From Escherichia coli (GTDB lineage: Bacteria; Pseudomonadota; Gammaproteobacteria; Enterobacterales; Enterobacteriaceae): 64,000 bases of DNA. A program made the position numbers. The stretch lies in NCBI RefSeq assembly GCF_045037415.1, contig NZ_CP173438.1; one strand, 5' to 3'. Shown piece after piece: positions 19,101 to 25,100 of this stretch; within the stretch, counting starts at the first letter, position 1; every line of letters starts with the position of its first letter.

Positions 19101-22100
19101 TGACCGGGATACTGTTTTTTTGCGCCAATGTGATCGCTTGTTGCAGAGCGGTATAATTTGTTTCGAGCTGCAGAAGTATGACATCAGAATTAATAATCGC
19201 TTCTTTCTGAATAGTTATTTCATCGGACGACATTGTCATGTTGGCACCGGGATAGATCGCAATAACATTATCGCCAGTACCTTCATTAACAAGGATCGTG
19301 GCAGTTCCGGTTTGCGTTTCTTTCGTTTGATAAATTATACTTTTATAAATCTTAGACGAATTCATAAAGTTGATCGCATAATCACTAAAGTGATCTGTAC
19401 CTACTTTTGTTATGAAATAAACATCAGTATCGGCAAAGCTTGCTGCCAGCGCTTGGTTACAGCCTTTTCCCCCCGGTGAAAATATAAAATTACTTGCCAG
19501 AAGCGATTCTCCGATAGTGGGAAGCCTCGGCAAATAACTGATGATATCAACATTAAACGAACCAATAACGCATACTTGACTTTTCATAGTTGAGTGGCCT
19601 TTTTTTATTCCCTGGGCTGTATCATAATTTTCAAGCGCATAAGCGATTTCATTTTTCGCAATAGTATCAAGCGAGTCTAGGACGATAAAAGCACCGCCAT
19701 GACATCGAGTCAGATAGCCAAGCCTGGCAAGTTCATTAAGATCTGATCGAATAGTTTCTTTCGTTACATTGAGGCTATTGGACAGATCGGATACTTTTAC
19801 AGAACCGAATTTACTGAGTCGTTTCAATATTTCATGATGGCGTTCAAATTTCATGCTTCACCTCACTTCAGTTACGTTAATATCTATCGATGTATATTGA
19901 TGTGATAATCACCATAAAGTGGCGGGGAAAAGCAAAAAAAAGCAAAAATAGCCTGAGAAAAGGTAAGCGTTAATGGAGAATCATATTGATGCTTATTTAT
20001 TGGTGAGAACTACGTTCCATGGCAGGAGTTCATCAATACGGTTGGAAGGTTATTCCGGCAGTACGCTCAGGATATGGCGCAGATACGCTTCCGGATCAAT
20101 GTCGTTCAGAAGGCAAGTGCCGATAAGCCCATACAACAGTGCACTGCGCTCGCCGCCGAAGAACATAAAGTTTTTATTTCCGAGACAGATGGCACAAAGG
20201 GCTTTTTCCGCGGCATTATGTCTGCCTCCGCCTGACCGTCAACACTGTAATAACAGAGTGCGCCCCACTGATTCAGTACACAGCTGAACCATTCACCCAG
20301 TCTGGATTTTTGGATAGCGTGGCATTTTTCTCCACCATGCATGCAGTGAGTCCAGTAACAGTTTGCTCTTCTTCTGCCTGACCACAAGATGTGCTGGACT
20401 GGTAAACGATGGGGATACCTGCTTACGCGAGAGCAATAAGTGGCTGGCCACAATTCTCGGTACAAAACTCTGCTGAATAGCAGCGATTTTCCCAGCGTGG
20501 TGCGTCGTTTGCATTTTACTGGTTCTAAGTTAACAATTATCTGTTCACTAATGACTACTCTAAAAACTTGTATCAGGACTATCACTTATTTAAGTGATAT
20601 TGGTTGTCTGGAGATTCAGGGGGCCTGTCTAGAGAGATATAAAGATACCTTCACCCCGGTGATGATAAAATAAAAGTATCTCAGCTATTAAACTGATGTA
20701 CGATTCGGGCAATAACTTATTCGTATAGAGCACCTTTTCTCTGGTGCTCTATACGAATAAGTTATTGCCCGAAATTAATTATATTGTTTATTATCAAACC
20801 GAGTTATAGCTTTTCTCTGAAAACTACCGAATAAAATATACTGATAGACTGCTGCCTAGAATTTCCAGATCAGGTGGGCTGCAAGTTGCAGACCGTTATA
20901 ATCATCGGTTGGGGTGTTGAACCACACTTTACCTGCCGTCAACCCGAGATTAAGTTGCTCAGTCAGCGGTTGAATTCGTTGCAAACTGATGCTCTTCATG
21001 CTGCCGTAGCGTGTTTCTGGCGTCCAGTCGTAGGTGTAAGCACCTGTTCCGCGGCTTAGCCATAGTTGCGTATAACCAGCACCGCGCGGGTCCTTCAGAC
21101 GCACGGAAATCATATTGCTATAACTACTACCTGCATCGCTGGAGTCATAATGGGTATAGCGGTAACTGGTGATCACCGGGCCAGTATAGAGTGATACGCC
21201 GCCTTGCCAGGCATTGACTTCGACATCATCGTAATATTTAGTGTAGCGATAACCGGTCGTGAAAAGCGTTTTTGGCAACAGGGCTAGGTTAATATCCTGT
21301 CGAAAATCCTGGCGGGCAAAGACCGGCGTATTATCCGCAAAGGCAATACCCGTTCGGGTTGTCAGCCAGTTATTCCATTTGTACCAGACTGCACCCTGGC
21401 CGCGAGTGGCATTGAAATGTTCAGTTTCATAATCACGACGCCCCTGGGAAAGATTAAAAAGCAGCGTTGCGTTTTCAACTTTTGCTACCAGTTCAGCATA
21501 CGCTAAATTACGGTTGCCATGTTCGCCAGAATAATCGGTAAAATCGTAGCCCGCGGTAATGGAAGTTAACCCGGCATAAGCGGGCAATGCACTAAAAAAA
21601 AACGGCACTAATAACGTATGCTTTATCATTTTAATCTCCTGTACGGATAAGTTCTTGTCGGAGTGAGTAAGTTCCACTAGGTAAATTACGTTCTACAATC
21701 ACGCGCGGGCCAAGTTGTGTGTTCGGAGAAATAATTCGCCCAGGCAAAATAATAACTTGTACGCCAAGGCGTGAACGCTTCCCGATATAACAACCTAATT
21801 TATCGCATCCGGTAGCGATAATTCCCTCTGGAGTTCGAACAGACACGGGTTGTTCATCCAGACGATGATTACTGGTACGTACTTGTGCGCCCAAATATGC
21901 CTGGTTTGCAACTACCGAGTCGGCAATAAAGCATTGCGGACCAATCGTTGCTTCCGCTTCAATAACCGCATTTTTAATTTCGGTGGCAAAACCAATTTTT
22001 ACGCCATTGCTGATTATTGTGCCAGGACGAATAAACGCATAATTACCTATCAGGCAGTTTGCGCCAATCACTACCGGCCCCTGAATAACGGCACCGTGGC

Positions 22101-25100
22101 AAATACGGGTATTCGCGCCGATAACAACCTCACCGGCACTTTCATCAATAATCACCTGGTCTGCAATCTGAACATTTTTCTCTTTAGCATTAAGCTTCAG
22201 ATAGTTTTTCAGTTCCTGTGACAGAAGGTTGGGAATAAGCGGTTGACGCTTCCACCAGTGCGGAATAGCGGGTGGGTTTGTCGCGCTGAGGTTCGCGTCC
22301 AGTAAAAAAGGCAATAAGTCCATAAATAATCCAGATGGCATAAGCTAATAATACATACACAACGGAAAGCGGTGCTAAAGGCACCAACAACCAGCAACGA
22401 TGAAACCAGGCGCTAAATGCACCAATAACACAAACTACGCCGACCCAGATAAGCGGGAACATTGCCAACACCACACCATGTGGCCCGGTGGTGATGAATT
22501 CATTAAACCAGGTAGTGAGATAAATACCAACGCCATAAAGCACAACCAACAGCATAGGAAATATACTGAAGATACCGAAGCGGCTAAATAAAAGTCTTTT
22601 ATGCAGGCGCATACAGACCGCGTAGCCCACAATCCAACGCCGCCAGCGGCGCCACTCCTCACGCGGACTGTTACATTCCTGTGGGTATACGATGCAGCGA
22701 TTCGCCTGCCGAATACGGTAGCCGTTTGCCACCAACGTCCAGGTGAGATCAAGGTCTTCGACTTTAGTACGATCAGAGAAACCGAACTTACGCAATACAT
22801 CAGTACGGAACATCCCGCAGGCACCGCTGATAATAAACGGTGCACCGCCCAGAAACTGCTGTAGCGTGCGCTTCATAACAATCATCGGCAACTTTACGGT
22901 GGCGCGGATATGTGGCAGCAGACCTGCCCCTTTTAACGCGGTGGAGGGAATTCCGCCAACGGCATCAGCGCCGCGCTCAATTTCTGCCAGCATATAGCCC
23001 ATTCCATCATTATCAGGTGGAACGAAAGTATCTGCATCACTTAAAAATACTTGATCACACGTGGCGTATTTTAGTCCATGCATTAGTGCGCCACCTTTAC
23101 CGGTGTTTTTTTGCGTGACGGCAACAAAGCGGTCGCCCCATTTGCGTTTGACTTCCGCCATGACCGCTTCGGTATTGTCCGTGGATCCGTCGTTAACGCA
23201 AATTACCCGGCAAAAATAAGGGTTACGCAGCAGATTATCCAGTGACTGCGCCAGACACGGGCCTTCGTTATAAGCTGGTATAATGGCGTCAATACAGCCT
23301 TTCTTTTGACAGGGTTTACGTCTTAGCGTACTTAAAAACCATAGCAACATTGCTATGGTCATGAAGATAAATAACAAAGTTTTCATTTCTATTACTCCGT
23401 TACAACACCATCTTATGGACAACAAAACCTTCACACATAGAATGACTAACCTGTTGTCCTCGGAATTTGGCTTGAGCAATTATGTATTCTGGCTGTATGT
23501 ATCTTCGATGGATCTGGCTTTTATGCTTTTGTAATGCTAATATTTTTTTATTAAAATGGACCTCATCTACAGATTCAAAAACTTGAGGTAAAAATGACAG
23601 ACATGTACTTGGTGTTTCGTATCCTAGTATTTGAGGAATATAACGACAGGCAACCATTGATGCCTGATAAACAGCAATGTGATCCTGATGCCTGTCAGTA
23701 TTATTCATGGTGTAAACTCGAGTAATTTCCACATCCTGGGGCGTTTCATTCTCAATTATGTATTCCAGAGATGATATCATCTCTTTTATTTGCAAATATA
23801 ATCTGGTATCTTCAAAATTTAGAGGGATTAGTTTATTGCATCCTAACATATTTAATGCTTCTTGTGATTCCTTGTGACGATCAATATACTCTGCGCCACA
23901 GCAACCAGGTGTCATGACAACAGATATAATATATACTTTTTCATTAGAATAATATGAAAGAGATGCACCACATCCTAATTCTATATCATCAGGATGGGCA
24001 CCAATTGCTAAAATGCCGGTTCTTTTTCCCGAAGATGTTGTAGAATTCAACATGTAATCTATCCTTTTAGATATGCCATATGAATCCCCATCATAAATTA
24101 TCACTATCATAAAAATTAATCTTATTAAATATACTTTATATTTACTTTTTCAGAGGCAGAGAAGCATCATTTATGCAACAAGAAGATCTTCATTTCTGTT
24201 AAAAAAACAGAGTTTATATGCTATTACGGATTTCAGTCGTAGCAAGTTGAACTGTGATCGCATTAAGACTAATCTTCTGGCTTGTAAAGGCCTTAGTTCC
24301 GTCATGACTCTCCCATCAGGCCATAGTTGAGCAAAATCCTGAAAGAATTATCACCTATTGTATCTTCAGATACGGGAGTTTTTGTCCAGTATTGTTGGAA
24401 TAATCATGTGACTATATTGTTCTTGTAGTTGGAACGTCTTATAAATAAAACGAAAAGGCAGTAAGTTTGTTGTATTTATTGATATTTTTCATTCAGTTAG
24501 TTGGCAATAATCAGTTATGGTTGTATTCAAAAGTACAGCTAGAACGAAATTAAAATAACGGGAGCATCGTACATGACTTGATATTTCAGAGGGCTAAGTA
24601 TTAATATATTACTACGATCTGTCATCATTGACTATCAATATATTAGTTAGTTAAATATCTCTTTGTGTCATTCTGGCTAGTATATACTCATTATCATGAA
24701 TGCTGCCATGCATAGCTAGGTCATCACCAATTAATGATATTCTCTGGATAATGATTCAAGAGTTTAAGTTCATTGTATATATAAGTTTGTATTCAAAGGT
24801 AATAAATTCCTTGTTTATTATTTCTCATGAAAATAGTTAAGAAGGAGTGAAGAGTCTGTTTTTTTGGTAGGAGAGTCTTTATTTATGTGTTTGCTATTAA
24901 TGAATTTTTGTTAAGGTAGCCTCATTTGTCATAATTTTGCTAATATATGTATCGTCATATGTCGTGTTTTACTAAAAACTTAACTATCATGAACTCGTGA
25001 TAGTAACAATATACCCTTAAGGTAGAACTTTTTCTTGATGAGAAGGTTTAAGTTTGTAGTTCAGAATATTACTGCCAAGATAGTTTATACTAGGATATGT

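What the first reader, a model, noticed from the sequence alone, without database searches (positions are those of the whole stretch)
20856..24110. yaiO-yaiX-yaiP-yaiS-like exopolysaccharide-type locus with an intact hexapeptide acyltransferase, at a non-K-12 position
Four contiguous minus-strand genes: PIG-L/LmbE deacetylase, processive GT2 synthase with Q/RxxRW-like motif, hexapeptide acyltransferase, YaiO outer-membrane barrel. This is the composition of a synthase-dependent modified-polysaccharide system. In K-12 the corresponding cluster lies elsewhere and, as I recall, its acyltransferase (yaiX) is IS2-disrupted; here it appears intact and the whole cluster sits in AT-rich DNA near cobU. 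The acyltransferase 5' end overlaps the GT2 3' end by about 130-150 nt in another frame.
Basis: partly seen in the sequence, partly recalled or inferred. Interest (0 to 1): 0.5.

Follow-up and report, generated by a model that had tools for sequence, protein, structure and literature searches.

The report
Second yaiSPXO sugar-polymer cassette in ExPEC island
This is a real, intact second copy of E. coli's poorly understood four-gene yaiS-yaiP-yaiX-yaiO cassette, carried on the well-known cobU pathogenicity island of extraintestinal E. coli; it most likely makes and exports a surface sugar polymer that helps cells stick together, but its product has never been identified.

Summary
Four tightly packed minus-strand genes lie at 20856-24062: a PIG-L deacetylase, a PgaC-like GT2 synthase, a hexapeptide (LbH) protein and a YaiO outer-membrane barrel.

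This is not the ordinary yai locus moved elsewhere. It is a paralogous copy inside the known ExPEC PAI/GI-cobU. CFT073 carries both this copy and the native frmR-yaiO...tauA locus. The island copy is in 840 of 5426 complete E. coli genomes.

The copy is mosaic. Synonymous divergence (dS) from the native copy is 0.04-0.22 for yaiO, yaiX and yaiP but 1.9 for yaiS, and the promoter region is unrelated.

The same four genes, in the same order, occur in Citrobacter, Superficieibacter, Salmonella and Stenotrophomonas, on Acinetobacter and ETEC-type plasmids, and often beside adhesin genes. All four are under purifying selection.

The yaiP/yaiX overlap is real as an open frame, and comparison with other loci argues against RefSeq's shorter yaiX start.

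A "synthase-dependent polysaccharide system" is the best reading but is only partly supported. The synthase motifs and fold fit. However, there is no c-di-GMP receptor and no TPR scaffold, both modifying proteins look cytoplasmic, YaiO is a 14-strand CymA/OmpG-like barrel, and YaiX lacks the catalytic His of its closest characterised relative.

Interest is moderate.

The parts
23400..24062 (-). yaiS-like PIG-L/LmbE-family deacetylase, 220 aa, first gene of the operon. No signal peptide. AGGA Shine-Dalgarno 9 nt upstream of the ATG.
   Evidence: Pfam PF02585, E 5e-21. The best PDB relatives are archaeal diacetylchitobiose deacetylase, BshB1 and BC1534, with the AHPDD and HxDH metal motifs aligned. 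It is only 66% identical to K-12 YaiS, and dS against the CFT073 native copy is 1.9. Start context.
22190..23386 (-). yaiP-like membrane GT2 synthase, 398 aa. One N-terminal TM helix, a GT-A domain, an interface helix carrying RWRRW, C-terminal TM helices, an invariant TGREPxRDKPTRY motif, then a variable tail.
   Evidence: Pfam PF00535, PF13641 and PF13632. 29% identity to E. coli PgaC, E 3e-19, with all catalytic motifs aligned. The NCBIfam PgaC_IcaA model scores 100.6 bits against a cutoff of 422. AF2 model pLDDT 77; the best full-length PDB fold matches are hyaluronan synthases at TM about 0.6. 60-68% identical in Xanthomonadales and Acinetobacter.
21631..22323 (-). yaiX-like left-handed beta-helix (hexapeptide) protein. 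230 aa if it starts at the conserved ATG at 22323. RefSeq calls 21631-22155 (174 aa). The longest ORF reaches 22341 (236 aa).
   Evidence: Hexapep and LbH Pfam hits. The best PDB match is the C-terminal LbH GlcN-1-P N-acetyltransferase domain of ST0452, E 1e-22. Homology to non-enteric YaiX begins at 'WW', residues 23-24 of the 230-aa form, which is upstream of the RefSeq start. Start-codon survey.
22190..22323 (-). Out-of-frame overlap of the yaiP 3' end with the yaiX 5' end (134 nt from the conserved ATG).
   Evidence: Non-enteric loci overlap by only 14 nt (...VVE* / MWW...). In Enterobacteriaceae both that stop and that ATG are lost, which lengthens YaiP by a variable tail and moves the only shared upstream ATG 22 codons back.
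20856..21629 (-). yaiO-like outer-membrane protein, 257 aa, with a signal peptide ending AYA|G. Predicted 14-strand beta-barrel with short loops.
24063..25034 (.). AT-rich (about 30-32% GC) intergenic region between yaiS and the divergent ibrA-like gene. Presumed promoter/regulatory region. Unrelated to the native yaiS-tauA region.
   Evidence: Composition. Similarity to the native locus fades at about 24005-24090. No Rfam family found. Promoter-like hexamers are no more frequent than in shuffled sequence.
20704..20773 (.). Perfect 31-bp inverted repeat with an 8-nt loop, about 83 nt downstream of the yaiO stop. Possible transcript-end hairpin or mobile-element relic. Specific to the island copy.
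   Evidence: The 225-bp flank that contains it is found in 840 of 5426 genomes.
20458..20632 (.). IS2-like (IS3-family) remnant flanking the cassette.
   Evidence: 83% identical to the end of the K-12 IS2. Matches IS3/IS2 transposase genes on plasmids.

Best explanation
The locus is a second, mosaic copy of the mobile four-gene cassette yaiS-yaiP-yaiX-yaiO, lodged in the ExPEC PAI/GI-cobU between an IS2-like remnant and ibrAB/hma. That much is shown.

Inferred mechanism: the four genes form one operon encoding a minimal synthase-type pathway for a hexosamine-based surface polymer.
- YaiP is a PgaC-like processive GT2 in the inner membrane. It polymerises a UDP-sugar, most likely UDP-GlcNAc, and threads the chain across the membrane.
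- YaiS (a PIG-L de-N-acetylase) and YaiX (an LbH protein, probably an acyltransferase) both lack signal peptides. They therefore act on the cytoplasmic side, either on the nucleotide-sugar/primer or at the synthase's cytoplasmic face. There they would exchange or remove N-acetyl groups.
- YaiO is a plug-less 14-strand barrel that lets the product cross the outer membrane.

The product would promote cell-cell aggregation and adhesion. The island copy has its own AT-rich promoter region and a deeply diverged yaiS, so it is probably regulated differently from the native copy, and perhaps tuned differently.
For: Identity and context:
- The protein accessions and neighbours are the same as in CFT073 PAI-cobU (island described in PMC7545054).
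- CFT073 also has the native locus.
- The island copy is in 840 of 5426 genomes. At most about 346 of these also carry native-type yaiS.

Mosaic origin: dS is 1.89 for yaiS, against 0.22, 0.04 and 0.10 for yaiP, yaiX and yaiO. A 400-nt stretch is 100% identical to the native copy.

The cassette behaves as a unit:
- Same order in five species-representative genomes.
- Same order in Stenotrophomonas, on an Acinetobacter Rep3/Mob plasmid, in JGI isolates, in ETEC-type contigs beside LT toxin and fimbriae, and in Salmonella between fimbriae and a type IV pilus.
- YaiP-type GT2 on 49 plasmid records.
- No other partner gene is conserved.
- dN/dS is 0.05-0.2 for all four genes.

Operon packing: a 13-nt gap, an overlap, then a 1-nt gap.

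Synthase: motifs align to PgaC. The fold is closest to hyaluronan synthases and BcsA (TM 0.5-0.6), whereas GtrB, ArnC and DPMS reach only 0.35-0.38.

Deacetylase: the closest solved relatives deacetylate GlcNAc glycosides.

Phenotype: repairing yaiX in K-12 gives YaiP-dependent clumping (PMC3531124, citing a meeting abstract).
Against: - No polymer has been demonstrated.
- No c-di-GMP receptor domain, TPR scaffold or periplasmic modifying enzyme is present.
- A cytoplasmic deacetylase cannot reach a chain that is already inside a synthase channel.
- YaiP has few TM helices, so whether it forms its own channel is uncertain. The model has pLDDT of only 77.
- YaiP falls far below the PgaC/IcaA equivalog cutoff.
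- YaiO's nearest folds are generic 14-strand channels, not EPS exporters.
- YaiX has Gln130 and Ile133 where ST0452 has His308 and Tyr311. Its best Pfam hits are non-catalytic LbH domains (eIF2B, GlgC, GMPPB).
- K-12 clumped after yaiX repair even though its yaiS carries a nonsense codon, so YaiS may be dispensable.
- The only recent yaiX paper reports overexpression effects of a 71-aa fragment and gives no biochemistry (PMC13058169).
Confidence: 0.5

Rival explanations
1. Glycolipid or short-oligosaccharide pathway rather than a secreted polymer. YaiP transfers GlcNAc to a membrane lipid, or makes a short chito-oligomer that is released on the cytoplasmic side, as NodC does. YaiS removes the N-acetyl group and YaiX re-acylates the free amine. 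This is the GT, then PIG-L, then N-acyltransferase logic of mycothiol, bacillithiol, GPI, aminoglycoside, teicoplanin and Nod-factor pathways (from established knowledge, not tested here). YaiO would then pass or anchor the small product in the outer membrane.
For: - Both modifying proteins lack signal peptides (sequence).
- YaiS is closest to enzymes that act on small GlcNAc glycosides.
- YaiP has only about four TM helices and resembles the 'minimal cellulose-synthase-like' PcManGT as closely as it resembles the hyaluronan synthases.
- YaiO's best structural neighbours are channels for oligosaccharides or hydrophobic molecules (CymA, OmpG, FadL).
Against: - Full-length fold similarity to the polyprenyl-phosphate GTs is lower (TM 0.35-0.38) than to the polymer synthases.
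- The motif set is the one shared with PgaC.
- The cassette has no flippase or ABC exporter to move a cytoplasmic product across the inner membrane.
- The clumping phenotype fits a surface polymer better (PMC3531124).
Confidence: 0.27
2. The island copy is a redundant, largely silent passenger. It would be a hitch-hiking duplicate, silenced in AT-rich DNA, with no role of its own.
For: - The upstream region is 30% GC.
- No Shine-Dalgarno sequence is seen for yaiX (PMC13058169).
- Up to about 40% of carriers also have native-type yaiS, i.e. the native locus.
- Deleting GI-cobU gave only modest attenuation, which was attributed to iron uptake (PMC3573123).
Against: - All four ORFs are intact at >=99% identity in about 833 genomes.
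- dN/dS is 0.05-0.2.
- At least about 490 genomes have this copy as their only cassette.
Confidence: 0.12
3. It is simply the ordinary yaiO locus seen in a genome with different local synteny.
For: yaiO, yaiX and yaiP are 94-98% identical in protein to the K-12 or native copies.
Against: - CFT073 carries both loci at separate positions.
- Homology starts exactly at the yaiO stop and ends inside yaiS.
- yaiS dS is 1.9.
- yaiX is not IS-disrupted here.
Confidence: 0.02

Closest known systems
Native E. coli yaiO-yaiX-yaiP-yaiS locus (frmR...tauA; K-12 b0358-b0364)
   Same: Same four genes in the same order. YaiO is 94%, YaiX 98% and YaiP 96-98% identical.
   Different: - Different chromosomal site (PAI-cobU).
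- yaiS is only 66% identical (dS 1.9), and the promoter region is unrelated.
- yaiX is intact, whereas K-12 has an IS2 insertion.
- yaiS is full length, whereas K-12 has a nonsense codon at position 186.
PgaABCD poly-beta-1,6-GlcNAc (PNAG) system
   Same: An inner-membrane GT2 synthase with aligned NDGSTD, DxD, SGxxxxFR, (T/V)EDxDxxW and (Q/R)xxRW motifs, together with a de-N-acetylase and an outer-membrane barrel. An aggregation/biofilm-type phenotype is reported for yai (PMC3531124).
   Different: - 29% identity, far below the equivalog cutoff.
- No PgaD.
- The deacetylase is a cytoplasmic PIG-L enzyme, not a periplasmic CE4 lipoprotein.
- There is an extra LbH protein.
Class I hyaluronan synthases / NodC-type chitooligosaccharide synthases
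   Same: Best full-length structural match (TM about 0.6). A small GT2 with few TM helices. In the Nod pathway the synthase is followed by a cytoplasmic deacetylase and acyl/acetyl transferases (established knowledge).
   Different: - 14-18% sequence identity.
- The NodC NCBIfam model scores only 30 bits.
- The accessory enzymes belong to different families (PIG-L rather than NodB CE4; LbH rather than NodA).
- There is no NodIJ-type exporter.
- An outer-membrane barrel is present.
ST0452 / GlmU C-terminal LbH amino-sugar-1-phosphate N-acetyltransferase domain (relative of YaiX)
   Same: Left-handed beta-helix. E 1e-22 over 157 residues. The Asn in the N(L/H)R(F/L)D(E) segment is conserved.
   Different: - The catalytic His308 and Tyr311 positions are Gln and Ile in YaiX.
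- There is no nucleotidyltransferase domain.
- The N-terminal 55 residues are unique to YaiX.
ExPEC PAI/GI-cobU (CFT073, 536, UTI89, RS218...)
   Same: The window region is this island. The genes and protein accessions match (PMC7545054).
   Different: Published descriptions list Hma and the Fbp iron system. In the papers I could search, the yai-like cassette is not discussed.

Membership tests
yaiSPXO / YaiO-family cassette | YaiO-family outer-membrane barrel (TIGR04390 / PF19413) | tested here: met
   183.9 bits against a cutoff of 32; PF19413 E 1e-26.
yaiSPXO / YaiO-family cassette | Four genes in the order PIG-L, GT2, LbH, YaiO, tightly packed on one strand | tested here: met
   The same order is seen in 5 species representatives and in 6 other contexts.
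Synthase-dependent exopolysaccharide systems (Pga/Bcs/Alg/Pel type) | Inner-membrane processive GT2 synthase with D, DxD, ED and QxxRW motifs | tested here: met
   Motifs align with PgaC; Q is replaced by R. Fold is closest to HAS/BcsA. Processivity itself was not tested.
Synthase-dependent exopolysaccharide systems (Pga/Bcs/Alg/Pel type) | c-di-GMP receptor (PilZ, PgaD, a GGDEF I-site protein, or MshEN) | tested here: not met
   No such Pfam domain in any of the four proteins, and no extra conserved neighbour gene. A cryptic site, for example in the invariant TGREPxRDKPTRY tail, cannot be excluded.
Synthase-dependent exopolysaccharide systems (Pga/Bcs/Alg/Pel type) | Periplasmic TPR scaffold joined to a 16-18-strand outer-membrane porin | tested here: not met
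Synthase-dependent exopolysaccharide systems (Pga/Bcs/Alg/Pel type) | Polymer-modifying enzymes located in the periplasm | tested here: not met
   The N-termini of YaiS (MLNSTTSSGKRTG...) and YaiX (MDLLPFLLDANLS...) have no signal-peptide features (read directly from the sequence; no dedicated predictor was available).
PgaC/IcaA PNAG synthase (TIGR03937 equivalog) | Score above the curated cutoff | tested here: not met
   100.6 bits against a cutoff of 422.3.
PIG-L / LmbE deacetylases | PF02585 domain with the AHPDD and HxDH metal-binding motifs | tested here: met
   E 5e-21. The motifs align to diacetylchitobiose deacetylase. Activity was not tested.
GlmU/ST0452-type LbH N-acetyltransferases | Catalytic His in the H(L)xY(x)GD motif | tested here: not met
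   In the alignment ST0452 His308 pairs with YaiX Gln130 and Tyr311 with Ile133. GPQC is invariant in the YaiX family. An invariant His153 in SNHRLD could substitute. The role of His308 is recalled from the literature and was not re-read here.
ExPEC PAI/GI-cobU | Located between hma/ibrAB and the island's IS-rich interior, next to cobUST | tested here: met
   PMC7545054.

The most novel reading that the evidence does not exclude
The yaiSPXO cassette would be a distinct, self-contained and horizontally mobile class of surface-glycan machinery. It would combine a PgaC-like synthase with cytoplasmic 'editing' of the hexosamine N-acyl group (a PIG-L enzyme plus an atypical LbH protein) and a minimal 14-strand outer-membrane channel, with no c-di-GMP receptor and no TPR scaffold. 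It would make an as yet unidentified aggregation polymer. Pathogenic E. coli would carry extra, separately regulated copies of it beside adhesins and toxins (PAI-cobU, ETEC plasmids).
Probability: 0.35. Interest if true: 0.65.

Novelty: new variant of a known kind. Interest (0 to 1): 0.4.

Why it matters
About 90% of complete E. coli genomes carry some version of this cassette. Pathogenic lineages have picked up extra copies on a pathogenicity island and on plasmids, next to fimbriae and toxins. Even so, its product is unknown, and K-12, where most genetics is done, has it doubly broken (IS2 in yaiX and a nonsense codon in yaiS).

The intact island operon in CFT073, Nissle 1917 or island-only strains is a ready handle for identifying a possibly new surface polymer involved in aggregation, biofilm and colonisation. 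It would also allow a test of whether a synthase system can work with cytoplasmic modification and a bare 14-strand exporter.

There is a practical annotation point as well: the start of yaiX is called inconsistently (174, 197 or 236 aa), and comparative data indicate that the shortest call is wrong.

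Tried and rejected
- Ordinary locus with shuffled synteny: rejected.
- Decaying native yaiS in B2 strains: rejected. The CFT073 and PE144 native yaiS ORFs are intact; only the K-12 lineage has the nonsense codon. RefSeq nevertheless flags them as partial.
- TPR-fused YaiO relatives as evidence for an EPS exporter: distant proteins of 439-611 aa do carry a C-terminal YaiO domain. 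Pfam found no TPR in the two that I scanned, so the argument was dropped.
- Conservation of 'MDLLPFLLD' as independent proof of the yaiX start: weakened. That stretch overlaps the highly conserved YaiP 'IYG...FFTGREP' codons. The better argument is that homology to non-enteric YaiX begins at 'WW' and the ancestral ATG has been lost.
- Riboswitch or RNA element upstream: none found. The only hit was a spurious miRNA-model match caused by the 31-bp palindrome.
- Anti-phage defence role: no PADLOC hits.
- First genome-contig scan with the 17-sequence alignment failed because it had no conserved stretch. It was rerun with 9 sequences.
- Literature searches on yaiP, CFT073 locus tags and yaiS were mostly noise.
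- A first attempt to fetch a CFT073 region exceeded the size limit.

Full report
**What is there**

The region 20856-24110 holds four contiguous minus-strand ORFs. Family scans identify them as follows:
- a YaiO-family outer-membrane barrel (TIGR04390, 183.9 bits against a cutoff of 32; PF19413);
- a hexapeptide/left-handed beta-helix (LbH) protein;
- a family-2 glycosyltransferase (PF00535, PF13641, PF13632);
- a PIG-L/LmbE deacetylase (PF02585).

RefSeq annotations of identical DNA give these coordinates (window = locus + 499):
- yaiO-like 20856-21629
- LbH 21631-22155
- GT2 22190-23386
- PIG-L 23400-24062

The spacing is a 13-nt gap, an overlap or short gap, then a 1-nt gap. This is what one expects of a single operon read yaiS, yaiP, yaiX, yaiO.

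**Where it is**

The window is the cobU-side pathogenicity/genomic island of extraintestinal pathogenic E. coli. Identical DNA in an O18 strain and in CFT073 shows the cassette flanked on one side by IS remnants and a small PfkB kinase/amidotransferase/DMT transporter cluster. On the other side are an ibrA/ibrB-like pair, the TonB-dependent receptor listed in reviews as Hma, and then cobUST and the pks island (PMC7545054).

In CFT073 the cassette lies at 2327733-2330939, inside PAI-CFT073-cobU, with the same protein accessions. Deleting GI-cobU gave modest attenuation in zebrafish, which the authors attributed to iron uptake. The cassette was not discussed (PMC3573123).

**It is a second copy, not a displaced ordinary locus**

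- K-12 has frmR-yaiO-yaiX::IS2-yaiP-yaiS-tauA.
- CFT073 has that native locus (456705-459931) as well as the island copy.
- Nucleotide similarity between island and native copies starts exactly at the yaiO stop (20858) and fades inside the 5' part of yaiS, at about 24005-24090.
- The island-specific 225-bp 3' flank is in 840 of 5426 complete genomes.
- The complete native frmA-tauA stretch is in 4254 genomes.
- A chimeric query of both yaiS types gave 5177 places in 4830 genomes. So at most about 346 genomes carry both types, and at least about 490 carry only the island type (examples).

**The copy is mosaic**

Against a native locus with intact yaiX, identity is 95-100% across yaiO, yaiX and most of yaiP. 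This includes 400 nt at 100% and one 200-nt patch at 79-87%. Across yaiS it is only 60-82%.

Synonymous divergence from the CFT073 native copy is 0.10 (yaiO), 0.04 (yaiX), 0.22 (yaiP) and 1.89 (yaiS). A 10- to 40-fold difference in dS within one operon indicates recombination or gene conversion between the two loci, or assembly from two sources. It does not indicate different selection.

The island yaiS is about equally distant (57-66% protein identity) from every chromosomal yaiS I examined. Its nearest relatives in the large protein collection are rare E. coli variants at 77% and 72%.

All four genes evolve under purifying selection, with dN/dS of 0.05-0.2 wherever divergence is informative.

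**The cassette is a conserved, mobile unit**

A scan of one genome per species found close YaiO relatives in only five loci: Escherichia whittamii, two Citrobacter species (C. braakii has two diverged copies) and Superficieibacter. All have the same four genes in the same order.

YaiP is far more conserved than YaiO, at 60-68% identity in Xanthomonadales, Pseudomonas and Acinetobacter. Its neighbourhoods elsewhere again show PIG-L, GT2, LbH and a YaiO-like protein of about 255-263 aa (not matched to Pfam YaiO in the Stenotrophomonas locus), with no other conserved partner:
- a Stenotrophomonas chromosome;
- a 12.7-kb Acinetobacter Rep3/MobA plasmid;
- JGI isolates;
- E. coli contigs where the cassette sits between heat-labile-enterotoxin genes and a chaperone-usher fimbrial operon;
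- Salmonella, between fimbrial and type IV pilus genes.

Forty-nine PLSDB records, mostly conjugative E. coli plasmids, encode the GT2.

An exhaustive profile search found only about 100 clusters (at 50% identity) of YaiO relatives at E<1e-10, nearly all 255-290 aa.

**The yaiP/yaiX overlap**

The longest yaiX ORF (236 aa, ATG at 22341) overlaps yaiP by 152 nt. KEGG-based work also uses a 236-aa form (PMC13058169). RefSeq aa here, 197 aa in the CFT073 native copy, and fragments in K-12.

In non-enteric loci yaiX begins 'MWWND' and overlaps the yaiP stop (...VVE*) by 14 nt. In all seven enterobacterial loci:
- the 'WW' is retained but the preceding Met codon has become His, Arg, Pro or Tyr;
- the yaiP stop is lost, so YaiP gains an 18-25-residue tail that varies between loci;
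- the only start codons shared upstream are an ATG (window 22323; 'MDLLPFLLD') and a TTG three codons later.

That gives a 230-aa YaiX and a 134-nt overlap.

Two caveats apply. First, the conservation of that ATG is partly forced by the invariant YaiP codons it overlaps. Second, an ATT/ATG/ATA three to four codons before 'WW' is another candidate start. Either way, the RefSeq GTG start removes a conserved N-terminal segment and is probably too short. No good Shine-Dalgarno sequence precedes the ATG (also noted in PMC13058169).

**What the proteins look like**

*YaiP.* It aligns to E. coli PgaC at 29% identity (E 3e-19). NDGSTD, DxD, SGxxxxFR and (V/T)EDxDxxW are all in register, and RWRRW pairs with QRLRW. 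It scores far below the PgaC/IcaA equivalog cutoff.

An AlphaFold model (pLDDT 77) has an N-terminal TM helix, a GT-A domain, an interface helix and three to four C-terminal membrane helices. Its best full-length matches in the PDB are:
- hyaluronan synthases (TM about 0.6);
- the 'minimal cellulose-synthase-like' PcManGT;
- BcsA (0.5).

The polyprenyl-phosphate transferases GtrB, ArnC and DPMS reach only 0.35-0.38.

*YaiS.* It is closest to archaeal diacetylchitobiose deacetylase, BshB1 and BC1534, and its metal-binding motifs are conserved.

*YaiX.* It is closest to the LbH GlcN-1-P N-acetyltransferase domain of ST0452 (E 1e-22). However, it has Gln130 and Ile133 at the positions of His308 and Tyr311 (the catalytic role of His308 is from my memory of the ST0452/GlmU literature). 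Its top Pfam hits are non-catalytic LbH domains. An invariant SNHRLD segment could supply a different catalytic His.

Neither YaiS nor YaiX has a signal peptide. YaiO does.

**Most likely mechanism**

The identity of the locus is shown. The mechanism is inferred.

YaiP polymerises a hexosamine-type sugar at the inner membrane and exports it. YaiS and YaiX alter N-acylation on the cytoplasmic side, acting on the precursor or primer, or docked to the synthase. YaiO provides the outer-membrane passage. The product favours cell-cell adhesion.

Support comes from the synthase motifs and fold, the strict four-gene linkage, the repeated placement beside adhesin loci, and the report that repairing K-12 yaiX gives YaiP-dependent vegetative clumping (PMC3531124, citing a meeting abstract).

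Against a canonical synthase-dependent system:
- no c-di-GMP receptor;
- no TPR scaffold;
- no periplasmic modifier;
- a smaller barrel that is not related to PgaA/BcsC;
- an atypical LbH active site.

The main rival is a glycolipid or short-oligosaccharide pathway using the GT, PIG-L, N-acyltransferase logic known from mycothiol, bacillithiol, GPI, aminoglycoside, teicoplanin and Nod-factor biosynthesis. It fits the cytoplasmic location of YaiS and YaiX. It does not explain the absence of an inner-membrane exporter.

**Verdict**

The locus is annotated in RefSeq and sits in a well-known island, so its existence is not new. What I did not find in the papers searched:
- that it is a mosaic paralogue of the native yai locus with its own yaiS and promoter;
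- that the cassette is a widely mobile four-gene unit;
- that it departs in several defining respects from the known synthase-dependent systems.

Its product remains unknown, so interest is moderate.

Noticed in passing
window 20704-20773: Perfect 31-bp inverted repeat with an 8-nt loop, about 83 nt downstream of the yaiO stop. It triggered a spurious miRNA-family hit on both strands. It is unique in the window and specific to the island copy (the flank is in 840 genomes). No T-run follows it.
   Followed up: partly
window 20458-20632: An IS2-like (IS3-family) end remnant lies right next to the island cassette. In K-12 the native yaiX is split by IS2. The same IS family therefore touches both copies.
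   Followed up: partly
window 25035-26953 (+): Divergently transcribed pair: a PAPS-reductase-like protein (ibrA-like) and a ParB/IbrB-like protein. They share the 970-bp AT-rich intergenic region with yaiS. This pair is not linked to the cassette in other genomes.
   Followed up: no
L002 8847-9404 (K-12 native yaiS) compared with L013 and L003: K-12 yaiS carries an in-frame nonsense codon at position 186. The remaining 37 codons are still in frame, and the small gene ykiC is annotated over that remnant. The native yaiS ORFs of CFT073 and PE144 are full length, yet RefSeq flags them as partial pseudogenes.
   Followed up: yes
P0105; homologous to window ~22204-22210: A 481-aa YaiP-YaiX fusion protein (15 member sequences). 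It is created by loss of one A in the GAAAAAT run near the yaiP stop of a native-type locus. It could be a real variant or a sequencing artefact. If real, it suggests the YaiP tail and YaiX can function when joined.
   Followed up: partly
L017-L019 (E. coli contigs): A third cassette type (YaiP 78% identical) sits between heat-labile enterotoxin A/B genes and an AraC-regulated chaperone-usher fimbrial operon. It is flanked by IS3-family transposases, on plasmid-sized contigs of 85-89 kb and on one 720-kb contig.
   Followed up: no
L006 and L008 (Citrobacter braakii ATCC 51113): One genome carries two diverged cassettes (YaiO 58% and 76% identical to the query). This parallels the two-copy state of CFT073.
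   Followed up: no
window 16849-19854 (-): A small island cluster: a DMT transporter, a class-I glutamine amidotransferase-like protein, and a DeoR-HTH/PfkB sugar kinase fusion. The kinase is frameshifted in the O18 strain but intact here and in CFT073.
   Followed up: no
YaiP residues 363-374 (window ~22265-22300): Invariant C-terminal motif TGREPxRDKPTRY, conserved from Enterobacteriaceae to Acinetobacter and Xanthomonadales. It lies after the last membrane helix. Its function is unknown; it could be a ligand or partner-binding site.
   Followed up: no
P0311, P0316, P0320, P0322, P0325, P0339: Distant proteins of 439-611 aa carry a full YaiO domain at the C-terminus, preceded by 200-375 residues that Pfam does not recognise. 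No TPR was found in the two scanned.
   Followed up: partly
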